Source: an uncultured Clostridia bacterium (GTDB lineage Bacteria; Bacillota; Clostridia; TANB77; CAG-508). From it: 64,000 bases of DNA. A model generated the notes under the pieces. It worked only from the letters and a program-made list of their open reading frames with translations. It did no database searches and was not told where the DNA came from. Each line of letters begins with the position of its first letter. The stretch's first letter is position 1. Position numbers and translations under genes: made by a program. Of the stretch, positions 28,269 through 32,705 are shown in pieces. The stretch lies in the NCBI GenBank assembly GCA_934121905.1, contig CAKOVI010000001.1:24847-88846 (forward strand). The letters are read 5' to 3'.

Positions 28269-29672
28269 ATGGAAAGCAAAAAAGAAAATAATAATCAAGA
28301 AAACTTAAGAGGTTTTCAAGGAATTTTTTTAGACAAAGAAACAGAAGAAAAATTAATTAATTTACAAAAAGATGGATTGGAAAGCAATATTCAAAATATG
28401 CATATTACTTTTAAATTTGGAGATATAGAAGAATATCCTAAAGAACTTATGAATAAGAATTTCAAAATAAAAATAATTGGTTATGGCTCAGATGGAAAAA
28501 ATAGTGGTTTCTTAGTTGAAGTGCCACAAGAATTAAAAAAATATTATAAAAGTAGTAGTTTACCACATATTACAGTTTCTCTTGGAGAGGTTAATGGAGA
28601 AAAGGGAAAAGCGGTTAATACAGGAAAATTAGATTTTAAATCTTTAGAAGAACCAATTGAAATTTTTGGTAAATTAGGATATTTTATATATGGAAAAGGA
28701 AAATGTATGGACAATCAAGTAATAGAAGAGCATAACAAAGAAAATATGCCAGAAAATGTAAAAATTATACTTATACCAAAATATATGAGTGAAGAAGAAC
28801 TTGAAAAAGCAAATATAAATCCAGTTGCTACAGTAGAGGCAGAATATGGAGAAAAAATCATAAGGGGAACAGAAATAACTTTAGCACATCACATAAAAGA
28901 GTATCAAAACAATCCAGCACCATGTAATACACCAAATGTTCCAGTTGTATCAGATAACAGTACAATTGTTGTAAGTCATTTAGATTTATATACATTGGGA
29001 GGAATTGCAGCACTAATTGGAAGAAAAAAAGAAGATATTAAATTTTGGCAAGCAGCAGAGTTTATAGATTTACATGGACCACATAATTTATTTCAAGTTG
29101 AAGAAGAAACAAGAAATAAATATATAGCATATCAGGCATATCAAGCAAATCATAGAAATCCAAGATTTATGGAAGTTACTGATGTAACAGAGATTGTGTT
29201 AAAACATTTAAACATAATAGACAAAGTTATTGATGGAGATAAAACATTAATTCAAGAAGGAATTAAATGGGATAAAGAAACTAAAAAGAAAATAGAAGAT
29301 TGTTTGATTTTTGAAAATGATAATGTTAGAGTTTTCAATTCGCCAGAAGGAGTTTTTTGCTCTGCATCATATTATTCAGAAAAACAAGGAAAAGTAATCC
29401 CAAGTACTGTTACAAGAAATGGAAAATTCAAATCTGTAACTGTTGCTATGGCAGATGGTGGAAAAAAAGTATCGGCAAAAGAATTAGTACAAGAACTATG
29501 GGGGAACGAAGCAGGTGGACATCCAGGAATAGCAGGTAGTCCAAGAGGAAAAGAAATGACAGAAAAGGATATGAAACAATTAGCAAAACTTGTTAATGAT
29601 AGATATAACAAAATTAATGAAAAAGAAGAAGCAATATATTTTGAACCAGATGGCATTTCATTAGATGATTAA
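28269..29672 (+). CDS. Two-domain phosphoesterase: N-terminal 2H (LigT-like) domain plus a C-terminal DHH/DHHA1-like domain
   Basis: Two HxTx motifs (HITFKF and HITVSL) about 55 aa apart. C-terminal SHLDLYTLGGIAAL (DHH motif I-like), FIDLHGPH and EAGGHPGIAGSP (a DHHA1 GGGHxxAAG-like motif). Confidence 0.4.
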   Translation: MESKKENNNQENLRGFQGIFLDKETEEKLINLQKDGLESNIQNMHITFKFGDIEEYPKELMNKNFKIKIIGYGSDGKNSGFLVEVPQELKKYYKSSSLPHITVSLGEVNGEKGKAVNTGKLDFKSLEEPIEIFGKLGYFIYGKGKCMDNQVIEEHNKENMPENVKIILIPKYMSEEELEKANINPVATVEAEYGEKIIRGTEITLAHHIKEYQNNPAPCNTPNVPVVSDNSTIVVSHLDLYTLGGIAALIGRKKEDIKFWQAAEFIDLHGPHNLFQVEEETRNKYIAYQAYQANHRNPRFMEVTDVTEIVLKHLNIIDKVIDGDKTLIQEGIKWDKETKKKIEDCLIFENDNVRVFNSPEGVFCSASYYSEKQGKVIPSTVTRNGKFKSVTVAMADGGKKVSAKELVQELWGNEAGGHPGIAGSPRGKEMTEKDMKQLAKLVNDRYNKINEKEEAIYFEPDGISLDD

Positions 29673-29695
29673 AATTTAAAGGAGATAAAGTTTGT

Positions 29696-30409
29696 ATGAG
29701 AATATTAAAAGCAAAAGAAATTTTTAAACAAACAGCCTTTAGTGAGAATAAAGAAAAAATGACAAAATTATATGAAGAACAGTTAAATATAAAGGCTATA
29801 AAATATTTTAGAGATAAATATAATAATCTTTTGGTATCAGCAAATGAAAATGCAAATCTTTTATATCAGCCTAGTAAAAAATATGAAATATTTACCCTAG
29901 ATACATTAGGTGGAAAAATATTTTTAACAGAAACATCAGATTTACCAGCTGGAGAAAATAAAGAGTTATATTACAATTTTAAAATTGCAAACAATATATA
30001 CCAAAAATTGATTGACATTCAAGATGCGTCATTTAATGAATATGAAGAAGTAAAAGAATTATATGAGAGAGAAATTCTAAAAAGCGAAAGCGAAATTGAA
30101 GATTTGAAGTTAAGAGACAATGAATTATTTAAAAAAGACTTAGAAGTATATGAATTAATTAGTCAAACATCATTGTATGAAAATTATCAAATATTAAATA
30201 AAGATAAGGAAACCCTTGTAAAGAAAAATGAACAATTAAATAAAACAATCTCAAAATATAATGAAAATATTAGAGATCTAAGTCGAAGATTAAAAATGTC
30301 ATTAGATAGAATAGAGCAATTGCAAAAACCTAAAACATTTTTGGAAAAATTAAAAGAATTATTTATAAAAGATGAAAAATATTTAATTGATGATAGGAGG
30401 GAAAAATAA
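29696..30409 (+). CDS. Coiled-coil hypothetical protein
   Basis: 237 aa rich in charged heptads. It starts 24 bp after the phosphoesterase gene. Confidence 0.45.
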   Translation: MRILKAKEIFKQTAFSENKEKMTKLYEEQLNIKAIKYFRDKYNNLLVSANENANLLYQPSKKYEIFTLDTLGGKIFLTETSDLPAGENKELYYNFKIANNIYQKLIDIQDASFNEYEEVKELYEREILKSESEIEDLKLRDNELFKKDLEVYELISQTSLYENYQILNKDKETLVKKNEQLNKTISKYNENIRDLSRRLKMSLDRIEQLQKPKTFLEKLKELFIKDEKYLIDDRREK

Positions 30410-30410
30410 A

Positions 30411-32705
30411 GTGAAATTTACGGTATCAAATAGATTAAATCCATCTCTTTTAGGAGAAAGAAAAATAGATGAATATTCATTTAAAGATTCTACAGGAGAA
30501 AGTAATGATGGTATGAGAAGAAGTTTTACATATACTGTACATTGTAAGATATTTGGAAACATAACAAATGAAATGAAAAACGAAGATGGAACATATACGT
30601 ATGATTACATATCAAGAGCACAAAGCGAATATGGAGATACAATTAGAAATCCCAAAGAATCCAAAATGGATTTAAAAACAATGGTTGAGGAACTTATGTT
30701 TCAATATAATATTCATAATTTTTCAACAGAATTACAAGAAGAACCTAATGATATAAAAAATTATTATGTATCTATGAATACCACATTGATTCAAAAATTA
30801 AATAATGAACCATATTTTTCATATAGTTCAAATTTGTATGAAAAAAATAGAGTAGATTATATATCAGATGAAAATACACAAGTTTCAAATTATCAAAATA
30901 TAAAATCAGAATCAATAAATGAAGTTAATAAAAAATTAAATAATAAATTATCAAAAGAAGAATATATTTTATATTTGCTAGGAAACAAAATAGAAAAAAA
31001 TTTTATAATAAAAATGGGATTAGATGAAATCGGAGAAAATGAAACTTTAAGAGAATTTTTAAATAAAATATCATTGAAAAATATAGAATGTAAAAATTTA
31101 GAAGAAGCATTAGATCAAAAAATAATTTCTATACAAGATATAAAAGAAGTATTACCTAAATATAGTAATTTAAGTCCTATAAATATTTCAAATAATCTTT
31201 TAGAACAATTATTTAATGAAACGCCAGAATTAATACAATATTTTTATCAAAGAGAAATGCCGACAGACATATTAAGAAAATATAGTCCAAATTTTGATAT
31301 AAAAAAAGTAAATCCAAGTGATTTATTACCAAATGATTTAGATAATGTGCTTGAAAATGTTATTCAAACTTATTATATTTGTGGAATATATGGAGGTCCA
31401 TCTGAGGAAGAACTTAGAAAAGGATATATGGACTATCTAAAGACCTTTTATGATGATCCAGATGCTTTAAAAAAGATTATACCTGTTCTAAATACGGCAG
31501 AGTACTATTTTTTTAGAATTTTAGCAGAAAATTTTGTAAAAGATATATCACCAGAAGTACTTGGAGAAAATGAAATAAGAGATATACTATTAGATACAAA
31601 AAATATAGAATTATCACAAATATTAAAATACAAATTCGATTATGATAAAAAATCAGCAGAAAAGCTATTGGAATTATTAAGAAAGCAGACATCAAGAATA
31701 CACATGGATTATCTAAATGATACATTAAAGATAATTAAGGAAAATGGAATAAATAACGAAGAAATAGTTGAAGCACTAAGGATAAATGGATTTAATTTTT
31801 ATTTGGGTAGTGGAAATGATGGAAAAAAGGAAATACAAGAATTTAAAGAATTAGGAATACAAGGAATGACTTTAGATGATTTAAGAGATAGAATGTTAAA
31901 AAGTGAAGATTTTAATTATCTAATGTTAGTTGATGAAATTACTCCAGAGGAAATGACCAGAGAATACAACAATATATTAAACGAGTTGATGGAGAAAAAA
32001 AACATAAAAGGGGATAAAAAATATGAGGGGATTTTTGAAATAATGTGTGAATATCAAAATTCTTCTGAATTATTTTCAAGATTGACTCCAAATATAAAAG
32101 AACTAAGTAAAAAAATAATGATAGAAAATTTAGATGTAATTGAAAAACTTCAAAAAGCTCCTATCAATCGTTATAGTAAATTTTCTCAAGTTATGAATGT
32201 TATGTCAGAAGCCTTTAAAATTACAGAAGAGGATATGAAAAATATTTATATGAAATGTTTAAATAATGGTGTTTCTAAAGAAGATATAATTAATGAATTA
32301 AAACAGTATATCCCAGAAGCAGATAGAGAAGAATTTAAGAAAAAAATTGAAAATTCTAACATTTATCCAAATCCAAAATATTTTTGGTTAACAGATAAAA
32401 ATCTAAAAAAGATTGGAATAAAGAGAGGGGAAAATAGAAATACCATAAAGAGTAAAATTCAAGCAGATGGAAAATGTTTTTCAACTAAAATAAAAACAGA
32501 TATGGTTGGAGAAAGCAAAGATGGTAAAAAAGTTGTTGTAAATAATTTATCAAAATGGCTATTTGGAGTGCCAGGTGCAAGGGGAAATTTAACAATCACA
32601 AAGGCTGGAGATTATATTCAATTACCTGGAAATACTCCTGAAGAAGCAGTGAAACTTATTGAAAATATATTAGAGGAGAGAACAAAAGAAGGAGAAAGTA
32701 AATAA
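30411..32705 (+). CDS. Large hypothetical protein (~764 aa)
   Basis: Long ORF with a probable GTG start at 30411 after the RBS aggaggg. The ORF track gives 30387 as an alternative start. No recognisable domain. Confidence 0.5.
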   Translation: MKFTVSNRLNPSLLGERKIDEYSFKDSTGESNDGMRRSFTYTVHCKIFGNITNEMKNEDGTYTYDYISRAQSEYGDTIRNPKESKMDLKTMVEELMFQYNIHNFSTELQEEPNDIKNYYVSMNTTLIQKLNNEPYFSYSSNLYEKNRVDYISDENTQVSNYQNIKSESINEVNKKLNNKLSKEEYILYLLGNKIEKNFIIKMGLDEIGENETLREFLNKISLKNIECKNLEEALDQKIISIQDIKEVLPKYSNLSPINISNNLLEQLFNETPELIQYFYQREMPTDILRKYSPNFDIKKVNPSDLLPNDLDNVLENVIQTYYICGIYGGPSEEELRKGYMDYLKTFYDDPDALKKIIPVLNTAEYYFFRILAENFVKDISPEVLGENEIRDILLDTKNIELSQILKYKFDYDKKSAEKLLELLRKQTSRIHMDYLNDTLKIIKENGINNEEIVEALRINGFNFYLGSGNDGKKEIQEFKELGIQGMTLDDLRDRMLKSEDFNYLMLVDEITPEEMTREYNNILNELMEKKNIKGDKKYEGIFEIMCEYQNSSELFSRLTPNIKELSKKIMIENLDVIEKLQKAPINRYSKFSQVMNVMSEAFKITEEDMKNIYMKCLNNGVSKEDIINELKQYIPEADREEFKKKIENSNIYPNPKYFWLTDKNLKKIGIKRGENRNTIKSKIQADGKCFSTKIKTDMVGESKDGKKVVVNNLSKWLFGVPGARGNLTITKAGDYIQLPGNTPEEAVKLIENILEERTKEGESK

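What the first reader, a model, noticed from the sequence alone, without database searches (positions are those of the whole stretch)
28269..32705. Operon led by a fused 2H (LigT-like) + DHH/DHHA1-like double phosphoesterase, followed by a coiled-coil protein and a 764-aa unknown
The 467-aa protein has two HxTx motifs (HITF and HITV) with correct spacing for a 2H cyclic-phosphodiesterase fold.

Its C-terminal half shows DHH-family-like motifs. These are SHLDLYTLGG (motif I with Tyr in place of the second Asp), IDLHGPH, and a DHHA1-like GGHPGIAGSP.

Two different nucleotide phosphoesterase folds in one polypeptide is unusual. It suggests processing of cyclic or oligonucleotide substrates, for example 2',3'-cyclic ends or cyclic oligonucleotide signals.

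The tightly linked downstream genes have no recognisable domains.
Basis: inference. Interest (0 to 1): 0.55.

Follow-up and report, generated by a model that had tools for sequence, protein, structure and literature searches.

The report
Fused 2H and DHH-like phosphoesterase cassette
A gut Clostridia gene fuses two different nucleotide-cutting enzyme folds, both invisible to standard domain searches, and its second half belongs to a large unannotated family found in phages, mobile elements and one CRISPR locus, which points to a role in destroying small nucleotide signals, although this strain's copy has lost a key catalytic residue.

Summary
The 467-aa protein (28269-29672) is a genuine fusion of two phosphoesterase folds.

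Pfam, NCBIfam and PDB sequence searches detect neither half. Both halves also exist as free-standing proteins.

The DHH-like module is a large unannotated family: 58 dereplicated locus groups in Clostridia, CPR bacteria and 47 viral contigs. In Frisingicoccus it sits inside a type III-D CRISPR locus, between the Cas10 complex and two Can2-like CARF nucleases.

The 237-aa and 764-aa partners are restricted to one Clostridia clade and remain unannotatable. The trio occupies different genomic sites in different relatives.

Asp241 is Asp in 55/55 aligned homologues but Tyr here (GAT→TAT), so this copy's DHH site is probably inactive.

The most likely role is two-step degradation of small cyclic or cyclic-phosphate-ended oligonucleotides in phage-host conflict. 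That role is inferred, not shown. I rate it a new variant of known kinds, of moderate interest.

The parts
28121..28275 (+). Promoter/leader region of the cassette. It holds a promoter-like site at 28172-28200 (TTTACT-17-TATAAT) and a GGAGG RBS. The region is a ~140-nt duplicate of the sequence upstream of the SUFU-like gene (26474-26608).
   Evidence: Consensus scan (a consensus match only, not evidence of function). Repeat families D2/D5/D9. Alignment A5.
28269..29672 (+). Gene for the 467-aa fusion protein: 2H phosphoesterase + DHH/DHHA1-like module.
   Evidence: ORF. Full-length homologues at 48-97% identity. The exact protein is present on 3 public contigs.
28269..28745 (+). N-terminal 2H (CNPase-like) domain, residues 1-159. 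HxT motif 1 is at 28401-28409 (H45-I-T47). HxT motif 2 is at 28566-28574 (H100-I-T102).
28746..29669 (+). C-terminal DHH/DHHA1-like module, residues 160-467. Conserved elements: VEAEYG 28833-28850; TLAHH 28878-28892; motif I SHLDL(Y)TLGG 28974-29003; IDLxGPH 29064-29084; DHHA1 loop GGHPGIAGSPRG 29514-29549.
28989..28991 (+). Codon TAT = Tyr241, which replaces the family-invariant second Asp of motif I. This is probably an inactivating allele of the DHH site.
   Evidence: TAT here against GAT in L001, L016 and L018. Asp in 55/55 aligned homologues. The Tyr allele is seen in 2 of the 12 full-length members listed for the 90% cluster.
29696..30409 (+). 237-aa partner protein with a C-terminal coiled-coil-like half and no recognisable domain.
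   Evidence: No significant family or PDB hit. Always follows the C-module in the Clostridia clade, with or without the 2H domain.
30411..32705 (+). 764-aa partner protein (GTG start; the mechanical ORF starts at TTG 30387). It is soluble and lineage-restricted. The last ~80 residues (about 32433-32690) form a small unannotated domain with the motif NTLGKWLFGVPGYxGH.
   Evidence: 52 clusters, all ~765 aa and >=47% identical. Profile search of 1.8 billion representatives. Alignment A4. No Pfam or PDB match. No TM segment.
27258..28148 (+). LysR-family regulator immediately upstream. Possibly linked to the 2H half rather than to the cassette as a whole.
   Evidence: Pfam HTH_1 + LysR_substrate. 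A 53%-identical LysR sits directly upstream of stand-alone 2H genes in L007-L010. It is absent next to the trio in L106-108 and L110.
36378..36818 (+). 146-aa protein of a family that recurs near C-module, fusion and stand-alone 2H loci. Possible loose member of the same island.
   Evidence: tblastn/blastp hits within <=7 kb of the focal gene in L013/14/23, L104/105, L021, L106-108 and L007-10.

Best explanation
The 467-aa protein is a bifunctional nucleotide/oligonucleotide phosphoesterase, made by fusing two independently occurring enzymes.

Shown:
- The N-terminal domain has the 2H fold with both catalytic HxT motifs. It is closest to CNPase and to the cyclic phosphodiesterase (CPD) part of RNA-ligase-type proteins.
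- The C-terminal module has the two-domain DHH/DHHA1 fold, with a motif-I-like HxDxD, further invariant His/Asp/Glu residues, and the DHHA1 GGH phosphate-binding loop.

Inferred:
- The 2H domain opens 2',3'-cyclic phosphate ends without metal.
- The DHH-like module uses divalent metal to cut 3'-5' bonds of very short linear or cyclic oligonucleotides.
- Together they would take a cyclic oligonucleotide signal, or its >P-ended cleavage products (for example cA4 -> A2>P -> ApA -> AMP), down to mononucleotides.

The gene heads a three-gene cassette with a 237-aa coiled-coil protein and a 764-aa protein of unknown role. The cassette lies at different genomic sites in gut Clostridia, which fits a role in phage/MGE-host conflict: signal erasure or reset.

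In this window the DHH site carries D241Y and is probably catalytically dead. Here only the 2H activity, and any binding or scaffold role of the DHH module, would remain.
For: Folds:
- AF2 models at pLDDT 95.9 and 90.0.
- The best BFVD hit for the 2H domain is a giant-virus RNA ligase, with Acb1 also hit.

Catalytic residues are conserved across divergent homologues.

Fusion of two free-standing families: stand-alone ~150-aa 2H proteins and ~280-aa C-modules both exist.

Conflict context of the C-module:
- 47 viral contigs, many of 100-300 kb.
- Next to a conjugative T4SS cluster.
- In a P. larvae mobile element.
- In an integrase mini-island.
- In Frisingicoccus, directly between a type III-D effector set (Cas10-like with Palm2 and GGDD; Csx10, Csx7, Csx19, TIGR03986 RAMP) and two Can2/Card1-like CARF nucleases.

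Precedents:
- The DHH enzyme NrN degrades SAM-AMP, and its closest structures are PggH and GdpP, the same as found here (PMC10600005).
- A DHH-DHHA1 enzyme degrades cA4, and jumbo-phage DHH enzymes are predicted to counter signalling (PMC7824862).
- The 2H enzyme Acb1 degrades CBASS signals (PMC9117128, listed).

The trio is conserved as a block but sits at four or more different genomic sites.
Against: - No substrate or activity was tested.
- Outside one Clostridia clade and Frisingicoccus, the C-module has no conserved neighbour, so guilt by association is thin for this cassette.
- PADLOC finds no defence match.
- The 2H domain resembles CNPase and RNA-repair CPDs more than Acb1. Its close relatives are chromosomal, LysR-linked and absent from viral contigs, which is compatible with a housekeeping role.
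- The DHH half has been lost repeatedly while the trio persists, so DHH catalysis is not essential to whatever maintains the cassette.
- The partner proteins give no functional clue.
- The family lacks a contiguous D-H-H triad, and its motif order differs from canonical DHH enzymes. Its chemistry could therefore differ.
Confidence: 0.45

Rival explanations
1. Housekeeping or RNA-end-healing enzyme. The CNPase-like 2H domain converts 2',3'-cyclic phosphate ends or 2',3'-cNMPs from RNA decay into phosphomonoesters. The DHH-like module (NrnA/pAp-phosphatase-like) then removes the phosphate or degrades nanoRNA. This would be nucleotide salvage or RNA repair under LysR control, functionally analogous to the bifunctional enzyme CpdB (the CpdB comparison is from my own knowledge).
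For: The best structural matches are CNPase and a viral RNA-ligase-type protein. The LysR -> 2H adjacency is conserved at 53-55% protein identity, in loci flanked by core genes. The stand-alone 2H protein is very common (indexed in 645 blocks of the collection) and its family was not found in viral contigs.
Against: No RNA ligase, kinase or RNase gene is linked in any locus examined. The C-module's distribution is phage, MGE and CRISPR, not core genome. The trio moves between genomic sites and often lacks the LysR neighbour. Repeated loss of the DHH half is unusual for a housekeeping enzyme.
Confidence: 0.25
2. The cassette is a self-contained, still undescribed three-gene conflict system, either defence or anti-defence. 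The 764-aa and 237-aa proteins would be the sensor/effector, and the 2H-DHH protein their regulator or a pseudo-enzyme scaffold. The phosphoesterase activities would be secondary or partly dispensable.
For: The trio is strictly co-inherited across 48-97% identity, with or without the 2H domain and even when the DHH site is degenerate or frameshifted. It sits at variable genomic positions next to other island genes such as AAA_5, AAA_14/DUF4143 and the recurrent 146-aa and 120-aa families. P0035 keeps a full-length DHH fold with 8 catalytic-site substitutions, as expected of a structural role.
Against: There is no homology to any known defence or anti-defence protein. The 764-aa family has only about 50 clusters and no detectable enzymatic domain. 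Most alleles keep all catalytic residues in both halves, which argues that catalysis matters.
Confidence: 0.2
3. The motifs are chance matches in an AT-rich genome, and the protein is not a phosphoesterase at all.
For: Pfam, NCBIfam and PDB sequence searches find nothing significant. HxT tetrapeptides are common.
Against: High-confidence models and unambiguous fold matches exist for both halves. The motif residues are invariant across phage, CPR and Firmicute homologues.
Confidence: 0.02

Closest known systems
CNPase / tRNA-ligase-type cyclic phosphodiesterases (2H superfamily)
   Different: Much smaller (~140 aa). The His-His spacing is 55 residues; about 80 is typical by my recollection. No Pfam CNPase or LigT hit. 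Bacterial, and fused to a DHH-like module.
Acb1 (phage anti-CBASS 2H phosphodiesterase)
   Different: Weaker structural match than CNPase. No sequence similarity. Close relatives of the N-domain are chromosomal and were not found in viral contigs.
NrnA / PggH / GdpP / TM1595 (stand-alone DHH-DHHA1 phosphodiesterases and nanoRNases)
   Different: No contiguous D-H-H triad. An invariant A-H-H and an ExE lie N-terminal to motif I, and a D..G.H lies after it, so the motif order is non-canonical. A long all-helical insert spans module residues ~98-184. Undetectable by Pfam DHH, and DHHA1 is only E=0.22.
NrN (CRISPR type III-associated DHH phosphodiesterase that degrades SAM-AMP)
   Same: A DHH-family enzyme encoded inside type III CRISPR loci as an ancillary gene. 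Its closest structures are PggH and GdpP, as here (PMC10600005).
MAD, the membrane-associated DHH-DHHA1 cOA degrader of Sulfolobus (cited in PMC7824862; protocol paper PMC7841402)
   Same: A DHH-DHHA1 enzyme that removes the cA4 signal of type III CRISPR. This is the role proposed for the C-module in the Frisingicoccus locus.
   Different: MAD is membrane-associated and archaeal. The C-module is soluble and bacterial or phage-borne. No direct comparison was possible.

Membership tests
2H phosphoesterase superfamily | Two H-x-T/S-x motifs | tested here: met
   H45-I-T47-F and H100-I-T102-V. H45, T47 and T102 are invariant and H100 is >=90% conserved in 35 sequences. They are retained in nearly all fusion alleles.
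2H phosphoesterase superfamily | Bilobed 2H fold | tested here: met
2H phosphoesterase superfamily | Match to a curated sequence model (Pfam LigT, 2_5_RNA_ligase2 or CNPase) | tested here: not met
   No Pfam or NCBIfam hit at E<=1. Profile against PDB sequences found nothing. Only PHROG 36523 (unknown function) at E 8e-6.
2H phosphoesterase superfamily | Metal-independent cyclic phosphodiesterase activity | not testable with these tools
   Needs an enzyme assay.
DHH/DHHA1 phosphoesterase superfamily | DHH domain + DHHA1 domain fold | tested here: met
DHH/DHHA1 phosphoesterase superfamily | Motif I DxD | tested here: not met
   The family has S-H-x-D-x-D in 55/55 aligned homologues. This window's copy reads D-L-Y (D241Y, TAT against GAT). 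So the feature is met for the family and not met for this allele.
DHH/DHHA1 phosphoesterase superfamily | Motif III D-H-H in canonical order after motifs I and II | tested here: not met
   No contiguous DHH. An invariant A-H207-H208 precedes motif I, and D267..H272 follows it.
DHH/DHHA1 phosphoesterase superfamily | DHHA1 GGGH-type phosphate-binding loop | tested here: met
   A-G-G-(H 49 / R 7)-x-G-I-A-G-S-P-R-G, conserved in 55-56 of 56. Pfam DHHA1 aligns there at a sub-threshold E=0.22.
NrN (CRISPR-associated SAM-AMP phosphodiesterase) | Adjacent or fused to CorA in a type III locus | tested here: not met
   No type III genes lie next to the window's cassette. In Frisingicoccus the neighbours are soluble CARF nucleases and a TPR protein, with no TM protein.
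NrN (CRISPR-associated SAM-AMP phosphodiesterase) | Sequence or closest-structure relationship to NrN | tested here: not met
Ring nuclease / signal-degrading ancillary enzyme (functional class) | Encoded within a cOA-signalling type III locus that has CARF effectors | tested here: inconclusive
   Met for the stand-alone C-module in Frisingicoccus, in 2 divergent locus groups. Not met for the window's own cassette.
Ring nuclease / signal-degrading ancillary enzyme (functional class) | Degrades cOA or another second messenger | not testable with these tools
   Needs biochemistry.

The most novel reading that the evidence does not exclude
The C-terminal module would define a new, widespread family of DHH-like enzymes with a rearranged (possibly circularly permuted) catalytic domain. 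This family would serve as a general eraser of nucleotide second messengers. Phages and mobile elements would use it as an anti-CBASS or anti-type-III-CRISPR weapon, and a type III-D system would use it as its off-switch. In gut Clostridia it would have been fused to a CNPase-like 2H domain and coupled to two novel proteins, forming a previously undescribed three-gene conflict cassette.
Probability: 0.25. Interest if true: 0.75.

Novelty: new variant of a known kind. Interest (0 to 1): 0.5.

Why it matters
If the proposed activity is confirmed, the DHH-like module would be a new enzyme family for degrading immune signalling nucleotides. It has several hundred protein clusters, is present in jumbo-sized phage contigs, CPR bacteria and gut Firmicutes, and is invisible to Pfam.

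Such a family would be relevant to anti-CBASS and anti-CRISPR discovery, and to how type III-D systems reset.

The 2H-DHH fusion would be a natural two-step eraser. It makes a concrete, cheap biochemical prediction.

The repeated natural inactivation of the DHH half, including in this window, provides ready-made controls. It also suggests that selection on this activity fluctuates, as expected for conflict genes.

Tried and rejected
**Sequence-only annotation**
- The 467-, 237- and 764-aa proteins were scanned against Pfam, NCBIfam, PHROGs, PADLOC and PDB (phmmer and profiles). Nothing significant was found except a sub-threshold DHHA1 hit and an unknown-function PHROG.

**Partner and neighbour hypotheses**
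- The 313-aa gene near the stand-alone 2H loci is not a C-module.
- The 757-aa gene after the CRISPR-linked C-module is unrelated to the 764-aa protein. It has no GGDD or HD motif and only TPR hits in Pfam.
- De novo neighbour clustering over 58 locus groups found no broadly conserved partner.
- The small C-terminal 'WLFG' domain of the 764-aa protein is linked to the C-module in only 3 of 58 groups.
- The small genes flanking C-modules in P. larvae are unrelated to the 237-aa protein.

**Fusion partners and phage context**
- The fusion partners in the 500-800-aa C-module proteins have no meaningful Pfam domains.
- PHROG annotation of phage neighbours showed no pattern.

**Other searches**
- A viral scan for the 2H family found no relatives.
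- No riboswitch or leader RNA lies upstream of the operon.
- The AFDB50 fold library was unavailable.
- The literature search found no paper on this family or on a 2H-DHH fusion.

**Not possible**
- I could not inspect the model coordinates, so the spatial arrangement of the conserved residues (permutation or not) remains unverified.

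
Full report
**What is there**

The window is about 26% G+C. On the + strand it carries three tightly packed genes:
- 28269-29672 (467 aa);
- 29696-30409 (237 aa);
- a third gene listed mechanically as 30387-32705 (772 aa from TTG).

The gaps between them are 23 nt and 1 nt, each with a GGAG-type ribosome-binding site. A promoter-like TTTACT-17-TATAAT lies at 28172-28200. A 118-nt spacer with its own promoter-like site follows the third gene.

**Standard annotation fails**

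Pfam gives only DHHA1 at E=0.22 for residues 383-444 and nothing for a 2H domain. NCBIfam, PADLOC and a PDB sequence search give nothing. One PHROG of unknown function matches residues 14-109 at E=8e-6. Profile searches of both halves against PDB sequences also fail.

**The protein is a fusion of two free-standing families**

Homologues of the full protein fall into two classes:
- full-length proteins of ~460 aa at 48-97% identity;
- a much larger set that matches only residues ~162-445.

The second set occurs as ~280-aa stand-alone proteins (for example in Paenibacillus larvae and P. alvei) or as one module of 500-800-aa proteins. Searching residues 1-159 alone finds ~150-aa stand-alone proteins.

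**The N-terminal half is a 2H phosphoesterase**

- Across 35 sequences H45, T47, F48, T102 and S104 are invariant, and H100 is at least 90% conserved.
- The AlphaFold model has pLDDT 90.
- Against viral predicted structures the best hit is a giant-virus 'RNA ligase' (E 6e-5). Acb1 ranks tenth (E 5e-3).

The domain is therefore a compact 2H enzyme, closest to the CNPase / RNA-ligase CPD type.

**The C-terminal half is DHH/DHHA1-like, but unusual**

- The model has pLDDT 95.9.
- Over 58 dereplicated homologues from Firmicutes, CPR bacteria, Proteobacteria and phages, these residues are conserved in 53-56 of 56 aligned sequences: E190, E192, H207, H208, H237, D239, D241, D267, H272 and the loop A-G-G-(H/R)-x-G-I-A-G-S-P-R-G.
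- The HxDxD element followed by GG and a helix looks like DHH motif I. The GGH loop looks like the DHHA1 motif.
- There is no contiguous D-H-H. Instead, an invariant A-H-H on a strand end lies upstream of motif I. All four strands of the N-terminal alpha/beta part precede a long helical block at module residues 98-184.

The linear motif order therefore differs from canonical DHH enzymes. Whether this is a circular permutation could not be checked without the model coordinates, so it remains an inference.

H269 is Asn in 37 of 55 homologues.

**This window's allele**

Position 241, the second Asp of motif I, is Asp in all 55 aligned homologues and Tyr here. The codon is TAT, against GAT in relatives. 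The exact window protein occurs on three public contigs. A second variant, P0368, also carries Tyr, but Asp is the majority allele within the same 90% cluster. The DHH site of this copy is therefore probably inactive. The 2H motifs are intact.

This is one of several independent losses of the DHH half:
- P0026/P0027 have D239N, D267G and H418L.
- P0035 has eight catalytic-site substitutions in a full-length protein.
- Several 245-266-aa forms are truncated by a frameshift just after motif I. In L110 the remainder is a separate 139-aa ORF.

In these lineages the partner genes are still present.

**The partners**

The 237-aa and 764-aa genes follow the C-module in every member of one Clostridia clade. 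This holds with the 2H domain (L001-3, L016-18, L021, L106-108) and without it (L019, L020). The core cassette is therefore DHH-like module + 237 + 764, and the 2H domain was added by fusion.

The 764-aa family comprises only about 50 clusters, all ~765 aa. A profile search of 1.8 billion representatives adds fragments, plus many 110-125-aa proteins that share only the last ~80 residues, with the motif NTLGKWLFGVPGYxGH. That small domain has no Pfam or PDB match and is linked to the C-module in only 3 of 58 locus groups.

None of the three proteins has a predicted membrane segment.

The trio lies at different sites in different genomes:
- LysR to AAA_14/DUF4143 (this window, L001);
- beside an AAA_5 ATPase cluster and a GGDEF gene (L106);
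- between MutS/thymidine kinase genes and a tRNA-synthetase/Obg region (L110).

**Context of the two halves elsewhere**

The stand-alone 2H gene sits immediately downstream of a LysR gene that is 53% identical to the window's LysR, in loci otherwise flanked by core genes. No close relatives were found in viral contigs.

The C-module is found in mobile and conflict-related settings:
- in 47 viral contigs, many of 100-300 kb;
- beside a conjugative T4SS cluster;
- in a P. larvae element with an integrase, ParB and transposases;
- in a mini-island of integrase + C-module + a 120-aa gene.

It has no neighbour conserved across the 58 groups.

**The most informative context: Frisingicoccus**

In four loci, forming two divergent groups, the gene order is: Cas10-like (Palm2 42 bits, GGDD present), Csx10, Csx7, Csx19, a TIGR03986 RAMP, then the C-module, then a 757-aa TPR protein, then two paralogous ~500-aa proteins, then Cas6.

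The two paralogues match solved 'DUF1887 family' structures (E 7e-12) over both a CARF-like and a nuclease-like segment, and they have a weak Card1-CARF Pfam hit. I read them as Can2/Card1-like effectors. This is a signalling-competent type III-D-like system in which the C-module occupies the position of an ancillary enzyme.

**Interpretation**

Known precedents are:
- NrN, a DHH enzyme in CorA-type type III loci. It degrades SAM-AMP, and its closest structures are also PggH and GdpP (PMC10600005).
- A membrane-associated DHH-DHHA1 enzyme that degrades cA4, together with predicted counter-signalling DHH enzymes in jumbo phages (PMC7824862).
- The 2H enzyme Acb1, which degrades CBASS signals (PMC9117128, listed).

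On this basis I propose that the 467-aa protein is a two-step phosphodiesterase for small cyclic oligonucleotides and for >P-ended oligonucleotides. The fold and the catalytic residues are shown. The substrates, the biological role and any role of the partner proteins are inferred.

The main rival is a housekeeping or RNA-end-healing role under LysR control. It is favoured by the CNPase-like character and chromosomal context of the 2H half.

A third reading is that the trio is an undescribed conflict system in which the enzyme is a regulator or scaffold. It is favoured by the persistence of the trio after loss of the DHH site.

**Membership**

- The N-domain meets the fold and motif criteria of the 2H superfamily but matches no curated sequence model.
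- The C-module meets the fold, motif I and DHHA1-loop criteria of the DHH/DHHA1 superfamily at family level. It fails the canonical D-H-H criterion, and in this allele it also fails DxD.

**Novelty and score**

Both superfamilies and their roles in signal degradation are known. Three things appear to be undescribed in the literature I could search:
- this divergent, Pfam-invisible DHH-like family with non-canonical motif order;
- its embedding in a type III-D locus with CARF nucleases;
- its fusion to a CNPase-like 2H domain within a three-gene cassette.

I rate it a new variant of a known kind, interest 0.5. It is well-founded structurally and directly testable. It is not startling, the window's own copy is probably half-dead, and the partners remain opaque.

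Noticed in passing
window 596-2440 (+), with 2462-3364: A SLATT_4 two-TM effector gene is followed by a SMODS nucleotidyltransferase with an AGS_C sensor domain. This is a CBASS-like signalling defence pair, and a 300-aa unknown follows it. It means the host itself makes oligonucleotide signals, about 26 kb from the cassette.
   Followed up: partly
window 4747-6142 (+) and 3391-4440 (-): A phage replisome-organiser N domain gene and an IstB/DnaC-like ATPase gene, next to a DUF6076 gene. Together these look like a replication module of an integrated mobile element.
   Followed up: no
window 7105-14171 (+): A type I restriction-modification cluster: HsdM (N6_Mtase, E 1.6e-115), HsdS, then 124-, 1008- and 287-aa ORFs. 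The 1008-aa ORF is presumably HsdR, but it was not scanned.
   Followed up: partly
window 16865-21540 (+): A QueC-like protein (480 aa) is immediately followed by a TatD-family DNase, preceded by 626- and 227-aa ORFs. From my own recall the arrangement resembles the QatABCD defence system. Only the last two genes were scanned.
   Followed up: partly
window 32824-37055 (+): A run of unannotated genes follows the trio: a DUF4116-repeat protein (8 repeats), a 111-aa protein, a 647-aa protein with an HEMFH zincin-like motif (weak SprT-like hit), a 146-aa protein and a 76-aa protein. Relatives L001 and L002 lack this ~4-kb block and keep only a 54-codon remnant of the DUF4116 gene.
   Followed up: partly
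window 36378-36818; L013 7277-7720; L104 10094-10456; L021 9064-9393; L106 1799-2251; L007 4939-5370: The 146-aa protein family recurs within 7 kb of the C-module, the fusion or the stand-alone 2H gene, in at least six different locus types. A separate 120-aa family (L106 8492-8854) also recurs in L017, L018 and L013/14/23. Neither family has a Pfam match.
   Followed up: partly
window 26474-26608 and 28121-28275: About 140 nt of promoter, RBS and first codons upstream of the 467-aa gene are duplicated (about 75-88% identity) upstream of the SUFU-like gene. Relatives that lack the SUFU-like gene have only the copy before the 467-aa gene. This suggests promoter capture and possible co-regulation.
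   Followed up: partly
L015 1-14885; L025 99-16842 (also L026, L027): Frisingicoccus type III-D-like CRISPR locus. It has a compact Cas10-like protein (527 aa, GGDD), Csx10, Csx7, Csx19 and a TIGR03986 RAMP, then the stand-alone DHH-like module, a 757-aa TPR protein with an N-terminal 'IICIDETG' motif, two Can2/Card1-like CARF nucleases, and Cas6. RT-Cas1/Cas2 lies upstream in three of the four loci.
   Followed up: yes
L104/L105 7753-10456: A minimal island of tyrosine integrase + stand-alone C-module (345 aa) + a 120-aa protein of the 146-aa family, inserted between a Wzy_C gene and rho.
   Followed up: no
window 32433-32690 (C-terminus of the 764-aa protein); P0311-P0348: A small unannotated domain of ~80 aa with a near-invariant G..I.(I/V)N.LGKWLFG.PG signature. 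It also forms the C-terminal part of many 110-125-aa stand-alone proteins. No Pfam or PDB match.
   Followed up: partly
window 39420-47078 (+): A 2552-aa protein with Glycoamylase, GH94 supersandwich and GH94 catalytic domains. I read it as cyclic beta-1,2-glucan synthase-like. It is conserved downstream of the cassette in L001 and L002.
   Followed up: no
window 25711-25797: An AT-rich hairpin between the convergent DUF1064 and rubrerythrin genes gives sub-threshold Rfam hits to eukaryotic miRNA families on both strands. It is most likely a bidirectional terminator, and the miRNA hits are not meaningful.
   Followed up: no
L013/L014 5091-7052: A 653-aa radical-SAM + HD-domain protein lies just upstream of a stand-alone C-module, at the edge of a conjugative T4SS cluster (PrgI, VirB4-like, TrbL, M23 peptidase, sortase).
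   Followed up: no
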